Positions 705 to 11,059 of a stretch of DNA of 11,067 nt are shown one piece after another (positions within the stretch are counted from its first letter, which is position 1; the number at the start of each line of letters is the position of its first letter). The DNA is taken from assembly GCA_048884785.1 (NCBI GenBank), contig JBHLQM010000001.1, positions 82,576 to 93,642 on the forward strand, in the 5' to 3' direction. Position numbers and translations under genes: made by a program. The DNA comes from Candidatus Thorarchaeota archaeon (GTDB taxonomy: Archaea; Asgardarchaeota; Thorarchaeia; Thorarchaeales; Thorarchaeaceae). Below the pieces are notes generated by a model that saw only the letters and a list, made by a program, of their open reading frames with translations, had not been told where the DNA came from and ran no database searches.

Positions 705-3410
705 CTATATCTTCAGTTCTTTCTTCTCTTTTGTTATCTCTGCTGCTTCAGCCATAGCCTCGTCATAGATATCAATAGGATAGCGATTATGAAGAGGTGA
801 ATACTTGGCACCAAAGGCAATGGAACCATAGAATCTCCTAGCAAACCATCCAACTCCTCTCATACGTACCATGCTCGACGCTCTCTTGAACTCCTCCAGG
901 GTTCGCTCGTCCCAGGTGCCGGTAAGACCACTGAAGAACGAATAGAGATACAACGAGGGTACGATTCCTATAAAGAAGATGAGGGCTGAAGAAACCAGGT
1001 CATTCACTCCACCCCAGAGGGCTTGTGAAATTATCTCCAATATGATGTAGTTTGCAATGGCTGCAATTCCAGGACCAATATAGCTCTGCCACGTGTAGAA
1101 CTTGGGTGCCGAGATCTCTCTGCGAATGATAATCCATGCCACAATATCCTTGACGACAAGCCCAACAACATAACCTATGATAATTCCAGGCATTCCTCCA
1201 AGATAGATCCCGAATACCACTGGTTCATACCACACAAACAGTGTCATGGCTATTGCACGAATCACTTGTTCGAGGACCCATACACTCGCAGCAAGACCAG
1301 TACGCTCGGCTCCGGCGAACATCCAATCGCCAAGCCAGCTAAAGAAGCCTATAAGCTGGAAAATCAGGAAGAACTGTAGAAGAACAGCGGCATATGCCCA
1401 GTCTGACCCTGCTGCACCAAGAATGGCTCGTGCACCAGTTGCCGCAAGGACTGATATTAGCCAAAAGACGAAGAATGCGCCATATTTCAGTCCCTGAGCC
1501 GTATAGAGTTCAGTTAGCTTCTTCTTGCCACGAGAATAGGACTCAGAAATACCTCCGAGCATGCCTTCCATGAACAGACCCACAACTGATACAATGATTG
1601 CAAGATCCCATGCCAATTGATATTGGCCTTGAAGTGCTGACCAGTTTAGTAGATTCGTACTAATGAGAAGCATTTGATAGAACCAAACAAGGGGAACAGT
1701 TGCTGCTCCAACGGTCCATTTGGCTCCAAACTTCAACGCCTTTCGAACTTGCTCTCTACCAAAATCGATTCTAAAGAGAGTTGAAACACTAAATCCTAGT
1801 TTCTTGAAGAGAATTATGGATACACCAAATATGAGCCATTCTGAGAAATACGATCCAATTGCCTGTCCAATTGCTCCTCCGAGAGCTTCTCCAAAGATAG
1901 GATTCTGTGAACCCCACCAACGGAAAACAAGAATGAGCACATATGGTCCAAGCGCATCGAAAACCACATACTTCAGAATATTCGTGATTTGTTGGTAATC
2001 TATACGATTCATGCCTCTGAATACATGAATAAAGAGCAATGTAAACCCAGGAAACTGGAAGAGAGAGTGCGCAATGAAAACATACGATAGATGAGCGAGA
2101 TAGGTGTGTGGGAACACAATGGATCCTACGAAGGCTACAATGGATATCTGTACGACACCTGTGATACATTGGAACCACACAAAGATTTGCGCATACTTTA
2201 CGGCCTCCTCAGGATGTGTGACCCTGTATTCAGCGAAATACTTTGCAAGAGCCACACTTGTTCCTAAGTCAAAGAGTGTCCATACTCCAAGAAAGAGATT
2301 AACACTAAAGGAAAACCATCCTGCGGCTTGTGGGAAAGGCATAATGAAACGCGGGTATATCATTATGGTTAGAACTACTCTTGGGATTACTAATAGAAGG
2401 GTTAGGAACAACTGAATGAGGAAGCCACCAAGTTGTCGGTGCATGCCAACTTCCTCCCATTCACTGATTTCATCAGTGACTTCGACGAGGAGCTCCGCTC
2501 TTTCAATTTCAGTAAGTACCTCTGTCCTCGCTTTACTCTTCTTTTTCATTGCTCGATACGAGGTGGCTGTAATTATTCCAATGACTACAACAACACCACC
2601 AATGATCAGCTGTTGTTCGAAGTGTGGAACTGGAGAGTAGTTCCATTCAGCATAAGTAAGAGGACTTTGATCTGACAGATAGATGCAGGATGAATAGAGA
2701 AAATAATTGAAGTAAGGCCACAGCACTATTTCATAGTTGATTTGAGGGGTTTCTGCAGTGCTATTCAAGGTGAGCCAGGGGGTATATATCAGGATACTGC
2801 CACTGCCAACTGGAGTAAGGGTGAGCAATGGAGAACCACCCGTTCCGAACCCAGTATCATTGGCAAGAAGCGTGACAGTATTGGAGTCAAGTTCCGGAAG
2901 AATGCTGATTTTTTCAGCAGGAGGGGCTGAAGACCAGTCATAGCTAAATGCTGGATGATTCTGTACCATCATCCGCGTGACTACGTTCGCCATTTCCTTG
3001 CTTTCTACAACTTCATCTGACGTGGTGACATTGAAGTAAGTAAAACCTGTCGCATCTTCAGTGATTGCTGGGCCCATAATAATGAAAAGACCGCCCCCAC
3101 CATTCAGAAAGGAACTCAAATCAGTGAAATCGGATGGAGCGATTGGAGTATCGATTAAGACCAGCGTATCCACATCAAGTGAGAGCGCTTCCGAAATCGA
3201 TGAAGAGGTTGCGACGTTTAGTGAACTATCATCAAGTCCGAGAGAATTGGTCACTGCAGGGGCATTTGGGGCCCCTACAACTATAACATCAATGCTCGTT
3301 GGGGCTTGGGCCGGCGTTAGAGGACCAGCAACAACTAATCCAATAATTACACCGGGAAAAACGAATATCGCAAGAATCATTGAAATTATCATAGCTCGGG
3401 TTTTGTCCAT
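705..3410 (-). CDS. Large membrane protein: N-terminal TM anchor, extracellular GATase1-like (non-catalytic) domain, second TM, then a MOP-superfamily (Wzx/MurJ/Rft1/MATE-like) flippase/exporter domain
   Basis: Hydrophobic aa ~7-29. Soluble acidic domain aa ~30-267 with a DTLVLID...FLNGGGGLFIIMGP pattern. TM aa ~268-285 followed by KKKSKAR. Then roughly 12-14 hydrophobic segments with Wzx-like motifs (FDLGTSVALAKYFAEY; RKALKFG; ISESYSRG). SD GGAGGA at 3421-3426. Confidence 0.7.
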   Translation of the reverse strand: MDKTRAMIISMILAIFVFPGVIIGLVVAGPLTPAQAPTSIDVIVVGAPNAPAVTNSLGLDDSSLNVATSSSISEALSLDVDTLVLIDTPIAPSDFTDLSSFLNGGGGLFIIMGPAITEDATGFTYFNVTTSDEVVESKEMANVVTRMMVQNHPAFSYDWSSAPPAEKISILPELDSNTVTLLANDTGFGTGGSPLLTLTPVGSGSILIYTPWLTLNSTAETPQINYEIVLWPYFNYFLYSSCIYLSDQSPLTYAEWNYSPVPHFEQQLIIGGVVVVIGIITATSYRAMKKKSKARTEVLTEIERAELLVEVTDEISEWEEVGMHRQLGGFLIQLFLTLLLVIPRVVLTIMIYPRFIMPFPQAAGWFSFSVNLFLGVWTLFDLGTSVALAKYFAEYRVTHPEEAVKYAQIFVWFQCITGVVQISIVAFVGSIVFPHTYLAHLSYVFIAHSLFQFPGFTLLFIHVFRGMNRIDYQQITNILKYVVFDALGPYVLILVFRWWGSQNPIFGEALGGAIGQAIGSYFSEWLIFGVSIILFKKLGFSVSTLFRIDFGREQVRKALKFGAKWTVGAATVPLVWFYQMLLISTNLLNWSALQGQYQLAWDLAIIVSVVGLFMEGMLGGISESYSRGKKKLTELYTAQGLKYGAFFVFWLISVLAATGARAILGAAGSDWAYAAVLLQFFLIFQLIGFFSWLGDWMFAGAERTGLAASVWVLEQVIRAIAMTLFVWYEPVVFGIYLGGMPGIIIGYVVGLVVKDIVAWIIIRREISAPKFYTWQSYIGPGIAAIANYIILEIISQALWGGVNDLVSSALIFFIGIVPSLYLYSFFSGLTGTWDERTLEEFKRASSMVRMRGVGWFARRFYGSIAFGAKYSPLHNRYPIDIYDEAMAEAAEITKEKKELKI

Positions 3411-3527: not shown

Positions 3528-4565
3528 ATGAGCGACTGGCAAAATATCATGTATCAAGCGGATTGCTTAGAATGCATGGATACAATACTCAATGATTTCA
3601 GGGGAATGTTCAAACTGATCTATATCGACCCCCCCTATTTCTCTGGGACAGACTATTCGTTAAGAATCAGAGAAGATGAGTCAGAAGGTTCATCTCCGAG
3701 AGTAAGCGAGCAGCCAACTTATACTGATAAATGGGAGGGAGGTCTATCGGAGTATCTTGATTTCATGAAACCTCGTCTGTCGCTCATGAAAGATTTGCTG
3801 GGGGATGGGGGCAGTCTGTGGGTCCATCTTGACTTCCATGTTTCGCATTATATCAAGACCTTTCTGGACGAGCTATTTGAGTATGACAATTTTGTGAATG
3901 AGATAATATGGAGAAGGACTAACAGTCCAAAAACTCAGAGTAGGGGTTTTGGATCTCAACATGATGTAATACTTCTGTATGCAAAGGATGCCTCCAATTT
4001 TCACACCAGTCCCATTTTTCGTCCTCACGATGAACGGTCTCTCAAGCCATATAGCTATGAAGATGAGAGAGGAAAGTTCAGGCTTATCGAGATTGAGGCA
4101 CAAGGCATTCAGCGCTCAGAATCTAGGAAGCAATTCGAATGGAGAGGCCGAATGGCACCATATCTCTATCGAAAAGAAACTCTCGACCACTGGTGGCAAG
4201 AGGGCGTGATTTACGAAAGCCGAAACGGAAGATACACGAAAAAGCAATATCTTTCGGATGTGCCTGGAATTCAAGTATCGGATTTGTGGTTGGACATACC
4301 GCCTATCCAGGGTTCATCACACGAATACACGGGTTTTCTTACTCAGAAACCTTTTGCGCTTCTTGTCAGAATACTGGAATCAGCCTCGTCAGAAGGGGAC
4401 CTTGTTGGAGACTTCTTCTCAGGGTCAGGAACAACTGCTATTGCTGCTCAGGCGACTGCCCGAAGGTGGATAGTGTGTGACTCAACGAGCGTTGCGATGG
4501 ATCTTTTGAAGTCAAGACTGGTAGGTATGGGGGTCTTTGATAGTTTTAAGACAGTGAAGCTTTAG
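3528..4565 (+). CDS. Site-specific DNA methyltransferase (N6-adenine/N4-cytosine, beta class, N6_N4_Mtase / Mod-like)
   Basis: Catalytic motif IV IYIDPPY near the N-terminus, NEIIW, TQKP, and SAM-binding motif I DFFSGSGTT near the C-terminus (beta order). Confidence 0.93.
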   Translation: MSDWQNIMYQADCLECMDTILNDFRGMFKLIYIDPPYFSGTDYSLRIREDESEGSSPRVSEQPTYTDKWEGGLSEYLDFMKPRLSLMKDLLGDGGSLWVHLDFHVSHYIKTFLDELFEYDNFVNEIIWRRTNSPKTQSRGFGSQHDVILLYAKDASNFHTSPIFRPHDERSLKPYSYEDERGKFRLIEIEAQGIQRSESRKQFEWRGRMAPYLYRKETLDHWWQEGVIYESRNGRYTKKQYLSDVPGIQVSDLWLDIPPIQGSSHEYTGFLTQKPFALLVRILESASSEGDLVGDFFSGSGTTAIAAQATARRWIVCDSTSVAMDLLKSRLVGMGVFDSFKTVKL

Positions 4566-5117: not shown

Positions 5118-6188
5118 TCAATCAAGCCAGATGGGCTCTTTCAGCAATTCTTCATCTTTCCAGAGTTCATTGAGTATAGCTAGGTCGTGGCGTCTCGTAT
5201 GAAAGTAAATCAGAGCAATACCTCCCAGACCAGATAGAAAGATGGCGTAGATAATCACTAGGGATGATGCCAGTGCAAAAATTGATGTGCCAAATGCAAT
5301 GAATGATACAAGACTAAGGAGGACAATCAATCCGCCTCCAAGAATTGATATTGAGTAACGCCTCTCCGCTCTTCCGGCTTCTTCTTCCTTCCTAATCTTC
5401 TTTAGGGATTCAATGATGTCCGATTCAGACATCTCAGTGTCTCGTAGTATCATCCTTTCAGCAAGCCGCGGATGCATTCCAAATTCGCGTGTTATATGGA
5501 GGGGGGCATCACCGGATTCACGTGTGGCACCTCTTAAGAGAAGGATCAATAGAAAGACCGCGCCTGCAGGATATGCGAAGTATTGAGCCATTGAAAGAAT
5601 ACTGAAGATGCCAATGTACGGAAGAAGCATTCCAAGAATCTGAAAAAGAGAGAACAAGAAGAAATAGCTAATCGGTAGAGTCAGTGTCACCAGCACACCG
5701 GAAATCAGCATGGAATAGAACCGGTTTCCTCGGTCAGCCCTCAGCAATTTCTCAGCTATAACAATTACACCTTCAAGAGAATGTTGTCTGATTGCCGCAA
5801 TCATTGGAGGAGATATGATTATTGCACGATGCAGCGGTGATACGTATTCCTTGACATAGCTCTTTCTGCTATCTCGAATCCAAAGTGAGATGAGGTTTTT
5901 TGTAAAGACGCGCTTTCTTGCCTGGTCACAGACATCCTGCAACTCGTTCTGTGGATTACTATATCTACTAGCTTGGATGAAAACTTCGATGATTGAAAAA
6001 AGGGCCCCTATTACAACTGCAATAATAATCAGATTCGGAATGTCCCAATATTGTAGCGGCATTAACATGACCAGTGAAAATGAACATGCGATACCTAGTA
6101 TGATGGCAATTAGAAAACTAAAGAGTGGTGTGAGTAAAGGTATTGGACTTCGAAACACACCATCCCAGAATTTACTAATTCTCTCCAT
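5118..6188 (-). CDS. Multi-pass membrane protein, possibly a degenerate (HExxH-less) M48/HtpX-like peptidase homolog
   Basis: 356-aa ORF with paired TM segments at the N-terminus, middle and C-terminus, an ATG start and a GAGGT SD. The soluble segment resembles the HtpX core by eye. The CDS is well supported; the family call is tentative. Confidence 0.6.
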   Translation of the reverse strand: MERISKFWDGVFRSPIPLLTPLFSFLIAIILGIACSFSLVMLMPLQYWDIPNLIIIAVVIGALFSIIEVFIQASRYSNPQNELQDVCDQARKRVFTKNLISLWIRDSRKSYVKEYVSPLHRAIIISPPMIAAIRQHSLEGVIVIAEKLLRADRGNRFYSMLISGVLVTLTLPISYFFLFSLFQILGMLLPYIGIFSILSMAQYFAYPAGAVFLLILLLRGATRESGDAPLHITREFGMHPRLAERMILRDTEMSESDIIESLKKIRKEEEAGRAERRYSISILGGGLIVLLSLVSFIAFGTSIFALASSLVIIYAIFLSGLGGIALIYFHTRRHDLAILNELWKDEELLKEPIWLD

Positions 6189-6239: not shown

Positions 6240-6968
6240 TCAAATCTTCATCTTACGAATGGCACCACCAGGCGCAACTCCCTTCGGGCATGACTTGACA
6301 CAATTCATAATCAAGTCGCACTTTGGTACACCATTAGGTCCTCTTGCTGCATCGAGATATCTTCCTCTATCAGGGGTTCTAGTGTCTTGGTTGAATCTAA
6401 AGGCTTTTGCAAGGGCTGCAGGGCCGAAGTATTCATTGTCTGAGGAATTTATTGGACATGATCCATAGCAAATTGCACATAGAATGCAATTGACATATCT
6501 ATCGATTCTATCTCTATCGTCGGGACTTTGGATTCTTGTTCCATCACCAGTCACAGGGTCGGACCAGAGTTTCAATTCCTCAAGTGCAGAGTAGAACTTG
6601 GACATATCCACAATCAAGTCTTTCAGTAGGGGAAGATTAGGCAGAGGCTCTACCAGTATTTCTGAGTCCGCATTCCATCCCAATGGTCTTTCTGATATTG
6701 CCTCAAATGTTTTCAGCTTCATTGGTTCAAATGGCACTGATGAGATTTGAGTTCGACAGGCAAGTCTAGGTTCTTTGTTTATCAGCATAGAGCAACTCCC
6801 GCATACTGCACCCCTGCAAGAATATCTGAAGGATAGTGACGGGTCCATCTTATCCTGAATCTGAAATAGTGCATCCAGGACAGTCATGCAATTTCTGACT
6901 TGCACCTTGTACAAATCATAATGTGTAATCTCCCCGCCGTCTCTACTTCTTGCAATACGGAGTATCAT
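6240..6968 (-). CDS. sdhB: Succinate dehydrogenase / fumarate reductase iron-sulfur subunit
   Basis: SCRGAVCGSC...LAC [2Fe-2S], CILCAICYGSCP [4Fe-4S] and CDLIMNCVKSCP (CX5CX3CP, [3Fe-4S]-type); LxxDLxVD motif; TAATG stop/start overlap with sdhA. Confidence 0.95.
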   Translation of the reverse strand: MILRIARSRDGGEITHYDLYKVQVRNCMTVLDALFQIQDKMDPSLSFRYSCRGAVCGSCSMLINKEPRLACRTQISSVPFEPMKLKTFEAISERPLGWNADSEILVEPLPNLPLLKDLIVDMSKFYSALEELKLWSDPVTGDGTRIQSPDDRDRIDRYVNCILCAICYGSCPINSSDNEYFGPAALAKAFRFNQDTRTPDRGRYLDAARGPNGVPKCDLIMNCVKSCPKGVAPGGAIRKMKI

Positions 6969-8650
6969 TAGTAAGTTCTCTCCTTTACTTCGAATTTACC
7001 AAGGTTCACATCTTTGTATTCAACTTCAAGTTCTTGGTCAATCTTTTTGACAAGAGTGTGCTTCAGGAATCTCTTGTCATTCCGATTTGGGAAATCCAAT
7101 CGCCAATGAGCACCTCTGCTTTCCTCTCTCCTGAGCGCACCTATCGCGATGGCTTCAGCAAGATCAATCATGTTCTCCAGCTCTAGAGCGCGTACTAGAG
7201 AGTAGTTGAATCGTTTGTCGGTTTCACCTATGGATACCGATTCAAACCGTTTCCTTAGTTGTCGAATTACTCCCAATGCGTCCTCGATTTCCTCATGCCG
7301 TCTGAATACACCGACCTTCGAATCCATTATCTCAGTTAGGTCGCGTCTTATTTCTGCAGGTGCAGTCCCTGTTCCTGCAATCAACAGTCTGTGCAGCTTC
7401 TGTCGAGTTCTAAAAACATCATTTTCAATTTCGGCTGTATATGGATTCTTTGTATTCGCGAGGAAATCGCCTACTGCATCTCCAACAACTCGTCCAAAGA
7501 CAAGAGTTTCAAGTAAGGAGTTGCCACCCAGTCTATTCGCTCCATGAACACTCATACATGATGTCTCACCAACCGCATAGAGTCCTTCAATTATTGTAGC
7601 TCCATTCCTATCACAATCTATACCGCCCATCGAGTAATGCTGCCCAGGTTGAACAGGTATCGGTTCCTCTATGGGGTCTATGCCTGCGAAGTAGATGCAG
7701 ATCTCTCTGATACCAGGTAGACGCTGCTTGATCCGTTCTGCTCCTAGATGCCGCAAATCAAGGTGTACATACTCGTTTTCGAATCCTCTGCCTTCAAGGA
7801 TTTCTGTTCTAATTGCCCTAGCAACAATGTCCCGAGGAGCCAGCTCCATCTTTTCAGGGGCATATAGACTCATGAAACGTTCGCCTTCGGAATTTATTAG
7901 ATACCCACCTTCACCTCTTGCGCCTTCAGTGATTAGTATACTAGACCCATAGAGTGTTGTTGGATGAAACTGCACAAATTCCATATCCTTTAGAGGAACA
8001 CCGGCCCGCAAAGCAATTGCACATCCGTCCCCAGTGTTAATCAGCGCATTGGTAGATCTTGAATATACTCTACCAAAACCACCTGTGGCAATAACAACAG
8101 CCCTAGCAAGGAATCCATGAACATCACCCGTAGCTATCTCTAAAGCGGTCAATCCATTTATTCTACCATCTACAATTGAGAGTGAGGTGGCAAAAAACTC
8201 CTCGTACATCTTTACGCCAAGACGAAGGGCTTGCTCGAATGTAGTATGAAGTAGATTGTGTCCTGTCCGGTCGGATGCATAGCAGGTTCTGGGAAATCCT
8301 GCGCCACCAAAAGGCCTCTGTGCAATTCTTCCGTCTTCCGTTCTCGAGAATGCCGTGCCCCAGTGCTCATTCTCAATTACTGCGCTAGGAGCTTCGCGGG
8401 TCAGTATTTCAACGACATCCTGATCTGCAAGATAGTCGGAACCTTTGACAGTATCAAATGCATGCGCCTCCCAAGAGTCTTCCTCTCCCAAAGCTGCATT
8501 GATGCCGCCCTGCGCGGCCACTGAGTGTGACCTAATTGGGTGCACCTTGGTGATGATTGCCACGTCATATCGTTCAGCGAGCTGAATCGCAACTCTCAAG
8601 CCAGATAGTCCCGCACCAACAATCAGGACATCATGATTATGTATCAACAA
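6968..8650 (-). CDS. sdhA: Succinate dehydrogenase / fumarate reductase flavoprotein subunit
   Basis: GAGLSG FAD loop, RSHSVAAQGG covalent-FAD His motif, QFHPT, EGARGEGG, ELAPRD, HYSMGG, HGANRLGGNSL and ESRGAH. Reaction direction (Sdh or Frd) cannot be determined from sequence alone. Confidence 0.96.
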   Translation of the reverse strand: MLIHNHDVLIVGAGLSGLRVAIQLAERYDVAIITKVHPIRSHSVAAQGGINAALGEEDSWEAHAFDTVKGSDYLADQDVVEILTREAPSAVIENEHWGTAFSRTEDGRIAQRPFGGAGFPRTCYASDRTGHNLLHTTFEQALRLGVKMYEEFFATSLSIVDGRINGLTALEIATGDVHGFLARAVVIATGGFGRVYSRSTNALINTGDGCAIALRAGVPLKDMEFVQFHPTTLYGSSILITEGARGEGGYLINSEGERFMSLYAPEKMELAPRDIVARAIRTEILEGRGFENEYVHLDLRHLGAERIKQRLPGIREICIYFAGIDPIEEPIPVQPGQHYSMGGIDCDRNGATIIEGLYAVGETSCMSVHGANRLGGNSLLETLVFGRVVGDAVGDFLANTKNPYTAEIENDVFRTRQKLHRLLIAGTGTAPAEIRRDLTEIMDSKVGVFRRHEEIEDALGVIRQLRKRFESVSIGETDKRFNYSLVRALELENMIDLAEAIAIGALRREESRGAHWRLDFPNRNDKRFLKHTLVKKIDQELEVEYKDVNLGKFEVKERTY

Positions 8651-8687
8651 TTTTTCCCCCTAGGAAGGAAAACGCACATAGTTCTGA

Positions 8688-8705
8688 ATTCATATAATTA
8701 TGAAT
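8688..8705. promoter_or_regulatory. Palindrome ATTCATA-TAAT-TATGAAT overlapping a minus-strand TTATAT TATA-like box upstream of sdhA
   Basis: Perfect 7-bp arms at 8688-8694 and 8699-8705; TTATAT at 8697-8692, about 42 nt upstream of TTG 8650. Confidence 0.5.
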
Positions 8706-8724
8706 CATTCCATGTGGCGTCTAA

Positions 8725-10110
8725 CTACACCATTTTTGTTGGATCTAGCAATTCATCAAGATTCTCAACCTCAAGACCCATTTCTTCTATGGTTTCTCGA
8801 ATGGTCTTTCCAGACTCATATGCAGCTCGCGCTATCAATCCCGCCTTGTCATACCCAATTACTGGTGAAAGACGTGTTACAACCATCAGGCTCCTTTTCA
8901 GGTGTTCCTCAATTACTGGAAGGTTCGGTGCAAGGTCCCGTAGACACTTATTAACAAATGACTCGATTCCGTTTGAAAGAATACCGAGTGCGTCAAGTAT
9001 GTTTACTATGATAAGGGGTTTGGCCACATTCAAATCAAGCAAACTACCGTGGCTTTCACCCATGGCAATAGCGGCATCTAACCCAATCACTTGAATGGCA
9101 ACCTGAATTAGTGCTTCGGATTGTGTTGGATTTACCTTCCCTGGCATGATAGACGATCCGGGCTCGTTTTCCGGCAGAAGCAATTCGCCAAGACCAGCCC
9201 GAGGACCGGAAGCCATCCATCGTATGTCATTTGCCATTTTAAAACAAGCCAGTGCCAAGAGCCTAAGTGCGCTGCTTATTTTAACAAAGACTCGGTGCGA
9301 GGCTATACCTTCCGCCTTGACTGGGTTTAGCTCAAAGGGAAAACCAAGGTTTTTGGAGAGATGCTTTACCACTCTTTCAGCAAAACCCTTACTGGCATTT
9401 AGTCCCGTACCAACAGCCGTTCCTCCAACTGGCAGAGAGATTAAATCGTCTCGAGCAATTTGCAGTTCATTAAAACTGGAAATAACCTGTGAACGATACA
9501 CACTAAATTCGAGTGACAGGGGTATTGGTACTGCATCCTGCAAGTGTGTTCTTCCAATTTTTATGACATCTTTAAACTCCCTAATCTTGTCATCTAGAAT
9601 TTGAAGGAGTGTTTCCACTGAAGGCAAAAGCTCCTTTGAGAGAGCTACTAGAGAAGAAACATGCATAGCTGTAGGAATTATATCATTGCTTGATTGACTC
9701 ATGTTTACATGGTCATTAGGATGGACGGGAGATTTAGAACCCAGAGGATGACCTAGAATCTCATTGGCTCTGTTTGCAAGGACTTCATTCATATTCATGT
9801 TGGTCTGTGTTCCAGAGCCTGTTTGATAGACATCAACAGGAAACTGATCAAGAAACATATCATGGAAAATAATCTCATCGGCGGCTTTGATGACAGCATC
9901 CCCAAGTTCCGATTCGATCTCTTCGTTGTCTACATGTGCCTGCATACATGCCTTCTTCACGTGAGCGAGGGCCACGATGAATTTCTCAGGCATCTGTCTT
10001 CCGCTTATCTTGAAATTTCGTAGAGCTCTCTCGGTATTAATACCCCAATACACTTCAGCAGGAACCTCAAGTTCTCCGAGTAGGTCCTTCTCCTTTCGCA
10101 TCTTTCCCAA
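8725..10110 (-). CDS. fumC: Class II fumarate hydratase
   Basis: GSSIMPGKVNP signature and GRTHLQDA. QTGSGTQTNMN and SQSSND match FumC rather than aspartase (GGAGTS / STND). TTG start with GGGTGG SD. Confidence 0.93.
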   Translation of the reverse strand: MGKMRKEKDLLGELEVPAEVYWGINTERALRNFKISGRQMPEKFIVALAHVKKACMQAHVDNEEIESELGDAVIKAADEIIFHDMFLDQFPVDVYQTGSGTQTNMNMNEVLANRANEILGHPLGSKSPVHPNDHVNMSQSSNDIIPTAMHVSSLVALSKELLPSVETLLQILDDKIREFKDVIKIGRTHLQDAVPIPLSLEFSVYRSQVISSFNELQIARDDLISLPVGGTAVGTGLNASKGFAERVVKHLSKNLGFPFELNPVKAEGIASHRVFVKISSALRLLALACFKMANDIRWMASGPRAGLGELLLPENEPGSSIMPGKVNPTQSEALIQVAIQVIGLDAAIAMGESHGSLLDLNVAKPLIIVNILDALGILSNGIESFVNKCLRDLAPNLPVIEEHLKRSLMVVTRLSPVIGYDKAGLIARAAYESGKTIRETIEEMGLEVENLDELLDPTKMV

Positions 10111-10192
10111 AGATAGCCACCCGCCTTGATGATGATTCGCCTTTTTCCTCTTAAGATTCTACATATGACACGATAAGAGATACATACTTGCC

Positions 10193-11059
10193 TTAGAGTA
10201 GAAGCTCATCCACCTTCTCCTGAAGTAGTTTCAAATCTGTCTTATGGTCTTTTAGTTGGCCCTTATCTGGTAATGCAATTCCAGATGCAAGATCAGGTGA
10301 ATCGACCTCGTAAAACACTCCGATGGGCATTCTATCTCCGTTTTGGAATGCTTTCTCAATCGCAAGGAATCTATTGGATGTATCATGTCCCTCTTCTTGG
10401 AGCGAGTATGTATGTTCATTGTAGAATTTCCAGGTTAATTGCTTATTCCAAGTAACACATGGTTGGAGAATATCTACAACTGAGAAACCCTTGTGAAGTA
10501 CTGCTCTTGTCATGAGATCCAGGAGCATCTTCTGGTCTCCTGAAAAACCTCGAGCGACAAATGTAGCTCCTCCAGTGATTGCAAGTCCTACAGTATTTAT
10601 AGGATCCATTGGAGCCCCAGGAGGGGGCGGTGAAGTCTTTGATACATATCCTCGTGGAGCTGAGGGCGAGAACTGACCCTGTGTTAGTCCGTTGACTCCG
10701 TTATTGTGGAGGAAGAGGGCTATATTGACATTGCGTCGTGCTGCATGGAGGAGGTGACCCAGTCCTTCACCAAGTGTATCTCCATCACCTACATGAACCA
10801 GCACCTTTAGCTCTTGATTCACCATGTGAACACCTGTGGCAATTGGTATGGCTCTTCCATGAAGCGTGTGAAGTGCGTTCAAATTGATATAATGAGGAAT
10901 TTTGCTACCGCAACCAATACCCGAAACCAGCACGAAGTCTTTTTGAGCGACTCCCAAATTCATAACGGTCTTCTTCAATGCCGCTAGTATCCCAAAATTG
11001 CCGCAACCTGTGCACCAAGTTTCCTTCTGTTTTCCTGTGAGCTGTTCTGCAGTAATCAT
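10193..11059 (-). CDS. korB: 2-oxoacid:ferredoxin oxidoreductase beta subunit (TPP-binding; KorB/PorB type)
   Basis: WCxGCG, SGIGC, LHGRAIP, GDGD...NN TPP motif, GLTxGQxSP and QPCVT. Substrate specificity is not determinable; korB is suggested by context. Confidence 0.88.
   Translation of the reverse strand: MITAEQLTGKQKETWCTGCGNFGILAALKKTVMNLGVAQKDFVLVSGIGCGSKIPHYINLNALHTLHGRAIPIATGVHMVNQELKVLVHVGDGDTLGEGLGHLLHAARRNVNIALFLHNNGVNGLTQGQFSPSAPRGYVSKTSPPPPGAPMDPINTVGLAITGGATFVARGFSGDQKMLLDLMTRAVLHKGFSVVDILQPCVTWNKQLTWKFYNEHTYSLQEEGHDTSNRFLAIEKAFQNGDRMPIGVFYEVDSPDLASGIALPDKGQLKDHKTDLKLLQEKVDELLL

What the first reader, a model, noticed from the sequence alone, without database searches (positions are those of the whole stretch)
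705..3410. MOP-type flippase fused to a probably glycosylated extracellular GATase-like domain
Seen: TM1, a ~240-aa acidic soluble domain (nt ~2610-3323), TM2, a basic KKKSKAR linker, and a ~570-aa polytopic domain. The positive-inside rule puts the soluble domain outside. It carries four N-glycosylation sequons (NVT, NDT, NST, NYS) and the 'DxLVL...FLxxGGGLxIxxG' pattern of GATase1-like folds (GldG/IFT52 GIFT, DUF4350-like), without the nucleophile Cys. Known: characterised MOP flippases (Wzx, MurJ, Rft1, AglR) are usually stand-alone ~400-550-aa proteins, and the prokaryotic ones often sit in glycosylation clusters. No glycosyltransferase lies nearby here. Inference: a lipid-linked glycan or lipid exporter with a built-in external substrate-receiving or sensing domain, possibly an uncharacterised archaeal surface-glycan export system relevant to the ancestry of Rft1.
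Basis: partly seen in the sequence, partly recalled or inferred. Interest (0 to 1): 0.72.

Follow-up and report, generated by a model that had tools for sequence, protein, structure and literature searches.

The report
Asgard flippase with docked outer cap
This Asgard-archaeal gene joins a MurJ/Wzx-type membrane flippase to an outward-facing, non-catalytic amidotransferase-fold domain that is predicted to sit as a cap on the transporter's outer face; the design is real and conserved, but its cargo is unknown.

Summary
ORF 705-3410 (-) encodes 901 aa: an N-terminal hydrophobic segment, an acidic sequon-rich domain (aa ~38-263), a TM helix, a basic/acidic linker, a 14-TM core and a conserved tail. 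Predicted structures are confident (pLDDT 84 whole, 93 ectodomain). The core matches MurJ (Z 24.1 over 487 aa), WzxE (22.4) and MATE (19.6), and passes Pfam Polysacc_synt. The ectodomain has the class I GATase-like fold (STM3548 Z 18.9, ThuA-like, IFT52, OST48) and no conserved Cys. K/R counts (37 inside, 4 outside) put it outside.

New here: the two modules are predicted to dock (ipSAE 0.78, best control 0.00), through the invariant outer loops and invariant ectodomain motifs. One relative carries them as adjacent separate genes. The family carries only Asgard names and occurs in 40 of 90 high-quality Asgard genomes. It is absent from a Thor genus (0 of 28) that keeps AglB (28 of 28), so it is not the obligatory N-glycan flippase. 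I found no glycosylation neighbours, no Rft1-specific signal and no specific OST48 kinship.

Verdict: a new variant of a known kind, cargo unknown. The scan found the same architecture before on other DNA (e1-5426297).

The parts
705..3410 (-). Whole gene, 901 aa plus stop codon (705-707)
   Evidence: ORF list and translation. 102 homologues, mostly 870-930 aa.
3321..3392 (-). N-terminal hydrophobic segment (aa ~7-30): a signal anchor or a cleavable signal peptide, followed by A-Q-A at aa 34-36
   Evidence: Hydropathy. Helix 3-28 at pLDDT ~60. A small residue about 7 positions before the first strand recurs in the Thor and Heimdall rows of A3. Cleavage is an inference.
2622..3299 (-). Extracytoplasmic class I GATase-like (ThuA/STM3548/GIFT-like) cap domain, aa ~38-263. 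Acidic, with sequons N127, N184, N216 and N257. Invariant motifs are DW.S.P (157-163), WPYFNY (231-236) and W.YSPVPH (256-263).
   Evidence: Model pLDDT 93.2, pTM 0.91. 2gk3 Z 18.9 rmsd 2.5 over 192 aa and 3rht Z 18.3. Foldseek 2gk3 E 3e-10. Alignment A3. Sequon statistics.
2547..2621 (-). Transmembrane helix (aa 264-288) that returns the chain to the cytoplasm
   Evidence: Hydropathy. Helix 264-294 in the model. KKKSKAR follows directly.
2445..2546 (-). Cytoplasmic linker (aa 289-322): basic KKKSKAR, then an acidic low-confidence stretch, ending in the conserved W318-E319..G322-H324-R325-Q326
   Evidence: pLDDT below 50 at 303-318. Invariant columns. K/R count.
924..2444 (-). 14-TM MOP flippase core (aa 323-829). 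The Pfam Polysacc_synt hit covers aa 360-610 (nt 1581-2333).
   Evidence: PF01943 E 9.3e-12, 45.4 bits against a cut-off of 28.2. MurJ 7wax Z 24.1 rmsd 3.2 over 487 aa, spanning model 325-841. WzxE Z 22.4 over 399 aa and MATE Z 19.6.
1644..1646 (-). N589 of the conserved N-[WY]-S in the outer loop between core helices 7 and 8
   Evidence: Sequon present in 46 of 50 members. The residue lies in the predicted interface with the cap (chain 1 residue 270), so its conservation is probably structural.
708..923 (-). Conserved cytoplasmic C-terminal tail (aa 830-901), three helices, family consensus ..GAKISPLHNKFPIDIYEEAM.EA.ELT.EKK.L.I
   Evidence: Consensus and invariant columns. Helices 835-846, 853-870 and 882-898. 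No Pfam family.

Best explanation
The gene encodes an Asgard-specific two-module membrane machine. The C-terminal module is a 14-helix MurJ/Wzx-type MOP flippase with both ends in the cytoplasm. It most likely moves a polyprenyl- or dolichyl-phosphate-linked glycan head group from the inner to the outer leaflet by alternating access. That step is inferred from family and fold, and the cargo is not identified. The N-terminal module is a non-catalytic class I GATase-like domain, exported and held by one TM helix. It docks as a cap on the outer loops of the flippase, mainly those of the first six helices plus the loop between helices 7 and 8. The dock is predicted, not measured. I infer that the cap shapes or gates the outer exit, or offers a platform for whatever takes the flipped glycan next. 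The conserved cytoplasmic tail may receive the substrate-building side. The product is probably an accessory surface glycan and not the universal AglB donor, because the gene is present in under half of good Asgard genomes.
For: Fold and family: PF01943 is over its cut-off. MurJ gives Z 24.1 over 487 aa including helices 13-14, WzxE 22.4 and MATE 19.6. The whole model has pLDDT 84.2 and pTM 0.83.

Topology: 37 K/R in 216 residues of the 'in' segments against 4 in 346 of the 'out' segments.

Cap fold: 2gk3 Z 18.9, 3rht 18.3 and 1t0b 16.3. No invariant or nearly invariant Cys occurs in 29 sequences.

Docking: ipSAE 0.78, 0.79 and 0.74, with the best of 3 controls at 0.00. That mark was reached by 116 of 157 solved complexes and 2 of 215 mismatched pairs. 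Runs agree in at least 93% of contacts and the partner's pLDDT is at least 86. The interface holds 9 of the 15 invariant cap columns and the invariant outer-loop residues Q361, G429, S430, P434, A439, H440, G507 and S584.

Fusion and fission: in G166 a 354-aa cap gene and a 584-aa flippase gene lie adjacent and divergent.

Conservation: full-length frames of 870-990 aa occur across Asgard classes.

Accessory role: the fusion occurs in 29 of 86 Thor-family genomes while STT3 occurs in 80 of 86. Genus g11 has 0 of 28 against 28 of 28.
Against: No experiment or expression data exist. No substrate-pathway genes lie nearby in the window or in any of the three lineage-specific neighbourhoods. The structural and docking evidence is prediction from alignments of one family, and the two chains are natural halves of one polypeptide, so proximity is expected anyway. 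A cap bound to both lobes could hinder outward opening, so the gating idea is untested. Sequence similarity to characterised flippases is weak: profile searches of PDB sequences found nothing. In the own genome this is the only PF01943 match, which would fit a housekeeping flippase better than an accessory one.
Confidence: 0.62

Rival explanations
1. It is the dedicated lipid-linked-oligosaccharide flippase of AglB-dependent N-glycosylation in Asgard archaea (the AglR/Rft1 role). The cap hands the flipped glycan to the oligosaccharyltransferase.
For: It is the only PF01943 match in the own genome, with no PF13440 or MurJ match. It is conserved across Asgard classes in housekeeping neighbourhoods. 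The cap shares its fold and membrane side with OST48, for which a review relays a proposed role in LLO recruitment (PMC7226087, passage read; 6s7o_G Z 11.8).
Against: It is absent from 28 of 28 genomes of Thor genus g11, and from g10 and g16, while STT3 is present in 80 of 86 family genomes and in 23 of 23 high-quality ones. Only 40 of 90 high-quality Asgard genomes carry it. Same-genus genomes carry 3-4 PF01943 matches each, among them ordinary ~500-aa flippases. It is not linked to aglB, which lies on another contig.
Confidence: 0.2
2. It is a MATE-like ion-coupled exporter of a small molecule, or a lipid scramblase, and not a glycolipid flippase. The cap would then be a sensor or a stabiliser.
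For: MATE transporters share the fold (6fhz Foldseek E 1.6e-7; Z 19.6). There are no glycan genes nearby.
Against: The Pfam match is to Polysacc_synt, not MatE. MurJ and WzxE score higher than any MATE, and the MurJ alignment runs on to aa 841, covering helices 13-14, whereas the MATE alignments stop near aa 770.
Confidence: 0.1
3. The cap is an active enzyme, such as a hydrolase or amidase acting on the exported glycan, and not a structural cap.
For: The fold is shared with enzymes (GATases, gamma-glutamyl peptidase). D60, S161, S259 and H263 are invariant.
Against: There is no conserved Cys, and M-G-P stands where I recall the GATase nucleophile. The nearest folds are ThuA-like/STM3548 proteins and the non-catalytic domains of GH42 enzymes, IFT52 and OST48. 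Nine of the 15 invariant columns lie in the predicted interface.
Confidence: 0.08

Closest known systems
MurJ, lipid II flippase (MOP superfamily; PDB 7wax, 7wag, 6cc4, 6nc9)
   Same: 14-helix MOP fold. Z 24.1, rmsd 3.2 over 487 aa, covering model residues 325-841 including helices 13-14. N-in/C-in topology.
   Different: No match to the Pfam MurJ model. About 12% identity. From recall, MurJ has no exported cap domain and serves peptidoglycan, which archaea lack.
Wzx/WzxE and the PST family (Pfam Polysacc_synt PF01943; PDB 9g9n, 9g9p)
   Same: Passes the Pfam gathering score (45.4 against 28.2 bits). 31 of 50 members match at E <= 1. Z 22.4 over 399 aa.
   Different: The WzxE alignment ends at aa ~765, after 12 helices. 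No ectodomain. Ordinary ~500-aa PF01943 proteins coexist in sister genomes.
ThuA-like / STM3548-like class I GATase-like proteins (PDB 2gk3, 3soz, 3rht, 1t0b, 4jqs)
   Same: Best structural matches to the ectodomain: Z 18.9, 18.3, 16.3 and 15.7.
   Different: 2gk3 and 3soz are titled cytoplasmic proteins. No significant sequence match (best E 0.23).
GldG / ABC_transp_aux and other GIFT-type domains (PF09822, PF23355, DUF4350, DUF7408)
   Same: Weak hits in 20, 2, 3 and 6 of 50 members, and one member passes the DUF7408 cut-off. From recall, GldG also has the TM - ectodomain - TM layout and accompanies a transporter.
   Different: All but one hit are below the curated cut-offs. The partner here is a MOP flippase in the same polypeptide, not an ABC transporter.
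OST48/DDOST/Wbp1, non-catalytic oligosaccharyltransferase subunit
   Same: Same fold class (6s7o_G Z 11.8; 6s7t_G Foldseek E 5e-6; the chain is named). Extracytoplasmic or lumenal side, followed by one TM helix, and part of a lipid-linked-glycan machine.
   Different: No PF03345 match on this gene. The cap profile hits no OST48 in PDB sequences. hhalign against Heimdall WBP1-like proteins aligns only 42 columns at 77% probability. Bacterial ThuA-like folds are much closer. Separate WBP1-like genes exist in Heimdall genomes, as reported by Eme et al. 2023 (PMC10307638, passage read).
Rft1 (eukaryotic candidate LLO flippase) and AglR (Haloferax)
   Same: MOP superfamily and the presumed cargo class (from recall). 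The origin of Rft1 is stated to be unclear in PMC4973528 (passages read).
   Different: No Rft-1 family appears among the 25 of 31 listed Pfam families for the 50 members. The Atlas neighbours are Asgard and Bacillota, not eukaryotic. AglR was not compared here.

Membership tests
MOP superfamily, PST/Wzx family (Pfam Polysacc_synt PF01943) | Match to the family HMM above the curated gathering score | tested here: met
   E 9.3e-12, 45.4 bits against a cut-off of 28.2, aa 360-610. 31 of 50 family members match at E <= 1.
MOP superfamily | Two-lobed fold of 12 core helices, superposable on solved MOP transporters | tested here: met
   Predicted model only: MurJ Z 24.1 over 487 aa, WzxE Z 22.4 over 399 aa, MATE Z 19.6 over 409 aa. 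Foldseek gives 64 matches at E <= 0.001.
MOP superfamily | Both termini of the core in the cytoplasm | tested here: met
   Positive-inside count on the model's helices: 37 K/R inside against 4 outside. This is a prediction, not an experiment.
MOP flippases | Demonstrated translocation of a lipid-linked glycan | not testable with these tools
   Needs reconstitution or genetics.
MurJ family (Pfam PF03023) | Match to the MurJ HMM | tested here: not met
   No PF03023 hit on the protein at E <= 0.1 or in the genome at E <= 0.01, with the control ringing in 12 of 14 genomes.
MurJ family (Pfam PF03023) | Two extra C-terminal helices (13-14) beside the 12-helix core | tested here: met
   The alignment to 7wax runs to model residue 841, while Wzx and MATE alignments stop near 768.
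Rft1 family (Pfam PF04506) | Match to the Rft-1 HMM | tested here: inconclusive
   No hit on the protein, and none among the 25 of 31 listed families for the 50 members. The genome search found none, but its control rang in no genome. No solved Rft1 structure appeared in the fold searches.
Class I glutamine amidotransferases (catalytic) | Class I GATase-like alpha/beta fold | tested here: met
   2gk3 Z 18.9, 3rht Z 18.3, and many true GATases at Z 10-13.
Class I glutamine amidotransferases (catalytic) | Conserved nucleophilic Cys (with His/Glu) at the elbow after the central strand | tested here: not met
   No invariant or nearly invariant Cys in 29 ectodomains. The sequence after the 'GGGLFII' strand is M-G-P. 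The position of the elbow is recalled, not superposed residue by residue.
GIFT / GldG-type domains (PF09822, PF23355) and DUF7408 (PF24157) | HMM match above the curated cut-off | tested here: inconclusive
   The window's protein has no hit. ABC_transp_aux appears in 20 of 50 members, best E 1.1e-4, below cut-off in the members seen individually. DUF7408 appears in 6 of 50, and one of these (P0042) scores 29.1 bits against a cut-off of 27.
OST48/Wbp1 (Pfam OST48_N PF03345) | HMM or profile match to OST48 | tested here: not met
   PF03345 matches two other places in the genome weakly, not this gene. The cap profile A3 finds no OST48 chain at E <= 10. The Heimdall WBP1-like profile does (E 0.0076).

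The most novel reading that the evidence does not exclude
The cap plus its single TM helix is the archaeal cognate of the OST48/Wbp1-type GIFT module, and the fusion marks an ancestral physical coupling between flipping of the lipid-linked glycan and its transfer. On this reading, Asgard archaea once ran a flippase-OST supercomplex whose cap half survives in eukaryotes as an OST subunit. A weaker form: the fusion is the functional LLO flippase of those Asgard lineages that have it, and it docks to AglB through the cap.
Probability: 0.08. Interest if true: 0.85.

Novelty: new variant of a known kind. Interest (0 to 1): 0.5.

Why it matters
From recall, the characterised MOP flippases are bare membrane proteins. 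How the flipped head group is released and passed on is not settled for MurJ or Wzx, and the role of Rft1 itself is disputed (PMC4973528). This is a natural flippase with a permanently docked outer domain, restricted to the archaea closest to eukaryotes and occurring as both fused and split genes. It offers a tractable system for asking what happens at the outer exit. The predicted interface residues give direct mutational targets. The cap shares its fold and membrane side with OST48, which makes a link to the eukaryotic N-glycosylation machinery testable, although my data do not favour specific kinship. For annotation, database names such as 'lipopolysaccharide biosynthesis protein' hide the second module.

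Tried and rejected
1. Sequence searches of PDB chains with the protein, the full-length profile and the cap profile gave nothing significant.
2. NCBIfam gave no family.
3. 'Sole flippase of the genome': true for G000, but sister genomes carry 3-4 PF01943 matches each, so I rejected it as a general rule.
4. Conserved glycosylation neighbourhood: clustering ORFs in 80 related loci gave only lineage-specific housekeeping neighbours. These were DNA methylase, ligase and PTPS in Thor; POR-gamma, a hydrolase, MutS and MutL in Loki/Hermod; a PK_C-like protein, YdjM and GH31 in Heimdall.
5. Linkage of Heimdall WBP1-like genes to the fusion: no overlap between the loci.
6. Split genes next to stand-alone cap paralogues: in 13 short loci none had an adjacent match to the flippase profile. 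One true split pair turned up later in G166.
7. P0039 (545 aa) looked like a flippase-only form, but it starts at internal M357, inside the core. I take it as a gene-call artefact.
8. Atlas search with the cap gave only scores below 0.9, which are leads only.
9. Expression: no RNA holder was listed for this stretch, and read laying was not used.
10. Ribophorin I search of the own genome: no match, but the control rang nowhere.
11. Literature: searches on Asgard with flippase and N-glycosylation, on Asgard with Wbp1, OST48, DDOST and ribophorin, on GIFT/GldG/IFT52/OST48, on DUF7408/PF24157, and on Asgard with AglR, Wzx and dolichol found no description of this fusion. bioRxiv supplements are closed, and the ESP tables of Eme et al. 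were not read.
12. I could not obtain model coordinates, so domain contacts come from the complex job, not from the single-chain model.
Full report
**What is there.** The minus-strand ORF 705-3410 encodes 901 aa.
- There is an N-terminal hydrophobic segment.
- An acidic stretch at aa 30-267 holds 3 K/R against 25 D/E.
- A second hydrophobic helix is followed by KKKSKAR.
- A long polytopic part follows.
- There are four sequons, at N127, N184, N216 and N257, plus one more at N589.

The neighbours are S17e, DNA ligase, a divergent N6/N4 DNA methylase, DinB_2, an unassigned membrane protein, SdhB, SdhA, fumarase and OFOR-beta. None is a glycosyltransferase.

**Folds.** AlphaFold2 with a 50-sequence alignment gave a confident whole-protein model (pLDDT 84.2, pTM 0.83). 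Only aa 32-35, 303-318 and 898-901 fall below pLDDT 50.

Foldseek finds MATE, MurJ and WzxE structures. The VIA second look ranks them as follows:
- MurJ 7wax first: Z 24.1, rmsd 3.2 over 487 aa, model 325-841.
- WzxE 9g9n next: Z 22.4 over 399 aa, ending at 765.
- MATE 6fhz: Z 19.6.

The core therefore has MurJ-like helices 13-14. By sequence it belongs to Polysacc_synt (45.4 bits against a cut-off of 28.2), not to the MurJ model.

The ectodomain folded alone is very confident (pLDDT 93.2, pTM 0.91). It is a class I GATase-like fold:
- STM3548 2gk3: Z 18.9, rmsd 2.5 over 192 aa.
- 3rht: Z 18.3.
- ThuA-like 1t0b: Z 16.3.
- Then GH42 middle domains, IFT52 (Z 12.9) and OST48 (6s7o_G, Z 11.8). 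One search confirms the chain's name.

Family-wide Pfam scans give weak hits: ABC_transp_aux/GldG in 20 of 50 members, DUF7408 in 6, DUF4350 in 3, IFT52_GIFT in 2 and ThuA in 1. No Cys is conserved among 29 ectodomains.

**Topology.** I took the model's helices as membrane spans and alternated sides from an N-in start. The 'in' segments hold 37 K/R in 216 residues and the 'out' segments hold 4 in 346.

Across 50 members the ectodomain carries 217 sequons in 11,351 residues (1.91 per 100 aa; 134.6 expected from shuffles). The rest carries 72 in 32,200 residues (0.22 per 100 aa; 60 expected), and 46 of those are the conserved N589 site. The members are related, so these counts are not independent. 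Both lines put the domain outside.

The first hydrophobic segment may be a cleaved signal peptide. A small residue lies about 7 positions before the first strand in the Thor and Heimdall rows of A3. This is untested.

**Docking.** I folded the ectodomain (aa 34-264, alignment A3) and the core (aa 320-901, alignment A6) as two chains.
- The scores were ipSAE 0.78, 0.79 and 0.74, and the best of three controls was 0.00.
- That mark was reached by 116 of 157 solved complexes and 2 of 215 mismatched pairs. These counts hold only roughly with my own alignments.
- The runs agree in at least 93% of contacts, and the partner's pLDDT is at least 86.
- I know of no similar solved complex.
- The chains are halves of one polypeptide, so proximity is expected anyway.

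On the core, the interface is made of the outer loops at 359-362, 429-446, 504-510 and 584-592 (including N589), plus residues 669 and 729. On the cap it is made of 157-164, 227-235 and 253-264. It contains 9 of the 15 invariant cap columns and eight invariant core residues. This explains why short outer loops are invariant across the phylum. It also suggests that the conserved aromatic motifs WPYFNY and W.YSPVPH are structural rather than sugar-binding.

**Spread.**
- A word-indexed search found 102 proteins, most of 870-930 aa. Every lineage name given is Asgard: Thor, Loki, Odin, Hermod, Hod, Hel, Sigyn and 'Asgardarchaeia'.
- Among species-representative genomes, 181 loci encode a relative. 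The best 80 include Heimdallarchaeota, and every title that names a lineage names an Asgard one.
- A cap-only profile finds only 211 representatives at E <= 0.001 among 1.84 billion proteins.
- Of the best 150 of these, 46 are at least 800 aa with the flippase part and 21 are shorter with part of it. A further 45 are under 300 aa and 7 are over 500 aa without it.
- The remaining 31 are 300-500 aa without a flippase. Most of these carry an N-terminal and a late hydrophobic segment, and many end in a charged tail.
- Of the 20 clusters looked up, seven carry an organism name, and each of those is Asgard.

In genomes at least 90% complete, the flippase-part profile (E <= 1e-40) matches 72 of 189. 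Among genomes at least 90% complete and at most 5% contaminated it matches 40 of 90. It matches 26 of 57 genera. Nearly all matches lie in frames of 870-990 aa. The single-sequence cap query gave the same 40 of 90. Some genomes carry 3-5 matches.

One genome has the two modules as adjacent, divergent genes: 354 aa and 584 aa, in L109. Another has a flippase-only paralogue of 625 aa with no cap gene within 7.5 kb.

**What it is probably not.**
- In the Thor family the fusion occurs in 29 of 86 genomes (11 of 23 high-quality). It is missing from all 28 genomes of genus g11.
- STT3/AglB occurs in 80 of 86 genomes, 23 of 23 high-quality ones and 28 of 28 in g11. The fusion therefore cannot be the obligatory flippase for AglB.
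- The own genome has no other PF01943, PF13440 or MurJ match. Sister genomes, however, carry ordinary ~500-aa PF01943 flippases as well.
- Neighbourhoods differ by lineage and are housekeeping genes.
- No Rft-1 signal was seen. The genome-level Rft-1 search is uninformative because its control rang nowhere.
- Specific kinship with OST48 is not supported. Separate WBP1-like genes exist in Heimdall genomes, in line with Eme et al. 2023 (PMC10307638, passage read).

**Mechanism, with status.**
- Shown by prediction: a MOP flippase fold, an outside cap and a conserved interface.
- Inferred from family: the cargo is a polyprenyl- or dolichyl-phosphate-linked glycan moved by alternating access.
- Speculative: the cap gates or shapes the outer exit or recruits the next enzyme, and the conserved cytoplasmic tail (aa 830-901) meets the assembling side.

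**Known or new.** Public records call these proteins 'oligosaccharide flippase family protein', 'lipopolysaccharide biosynthesis protein' or 'hypothetical'. Five literature searches found no description of the fusion. From papers I saw passages only: PMC10307638, 10.64898/2026.10.28.762692, PMC7226087, PMC4973528 and 10.1101/2025.10.15.682550.

This scan met the same architecture earlier in another genome (e1-5426297). Its two claims were a docked cap and split adjacent genes. I re-tested both here and both hold.

I rate it a new variant of a known kind, of moderate interest.

Noticed in passing
window 5118-6188 (-): A 356-aa ORF with several hydrophobic stretches and no Pfam or NCBIfam family. 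It sits between DinB_2 and the sdhB/sdhA/fumC genes.
   Followed up: no
window 6240-11059 (-): A same-strand run of SdhB-like (Fer2_3), SdhA-like (FAD_binding_2, Succ_DH_flav_C), class II fumarase and a 2-oxoacid:ferredoxin oxidoreductase beta subunit. In my simple ORF calls, OFOR subunit genes also lie a few genes upstream of the flippase in related Loki/Hermod-type loci.
   Followed up: partly
window 3528-4565 (+) and related Thor loci: An N6/N4 DNA methylase lies divergently next to the flippase gene. The same neighbour cluster sits at position -1 in 12 related loci and at -2 in 3.
   Followed up: partly
L023:13760-16156 and 10 other loci sharing the Heimdall-type neighbourhood: A GH31 glycoside hydrolase lies three genes downstream of the flippase in 11 loci. 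GH31 is, from recall, the family of eukaryotic ER glucosidase II. I did not test whether this linkage means anything.
   Followed up: no
L103:1342-2394, L106:994-2058, L107:907-2094, L104:1051-2337: Heimdall WBP1/OST48-like proteins of 350-428 aa with a late hydrophobic segment. L106 and L107 also have an N-terminal one. All are sequon-rich by eye, and the three shorter ones end in Lys-rich tails. Their profile hits human OST48 at E 0.0076.
   Followed up: partly
L094, L098, L099 (G283, G144, G134): Stand-alone cap paralogues lie beside other small ORFs that have one early and one late hydrophobic segment and no Pfam family. This suggests clusters of such ectodomain proteins.
   Followed up: partly
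L105:514-1881, L108:493-1851: Heimdall proteins of about 455 aa with no hydrophobic segment, a weak OST48_N match at the N-terminus and a long charged tail. hhalign against the cap gave only 9% probability.
   Followed up: partly
G000:C49:8876-9400: The genome's only STT3/AglB match covers model positions 1-173 in a 698-aa frame. Sister genomes have ~926-aa frames matching the whole model. The gene may be divergent or cut here.
   Followed up: no
L075 (CP070760.1) and G065:C1:1871724-1872623: In one Heimdall chromosome, tblastn matched only query residues 61-616. A single-contig genome of similar size shows a 662-aa frame in place of ~880 aa. This may be a disrupted copy. I did not check whether the two records are the same genome.
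   Followed up: no
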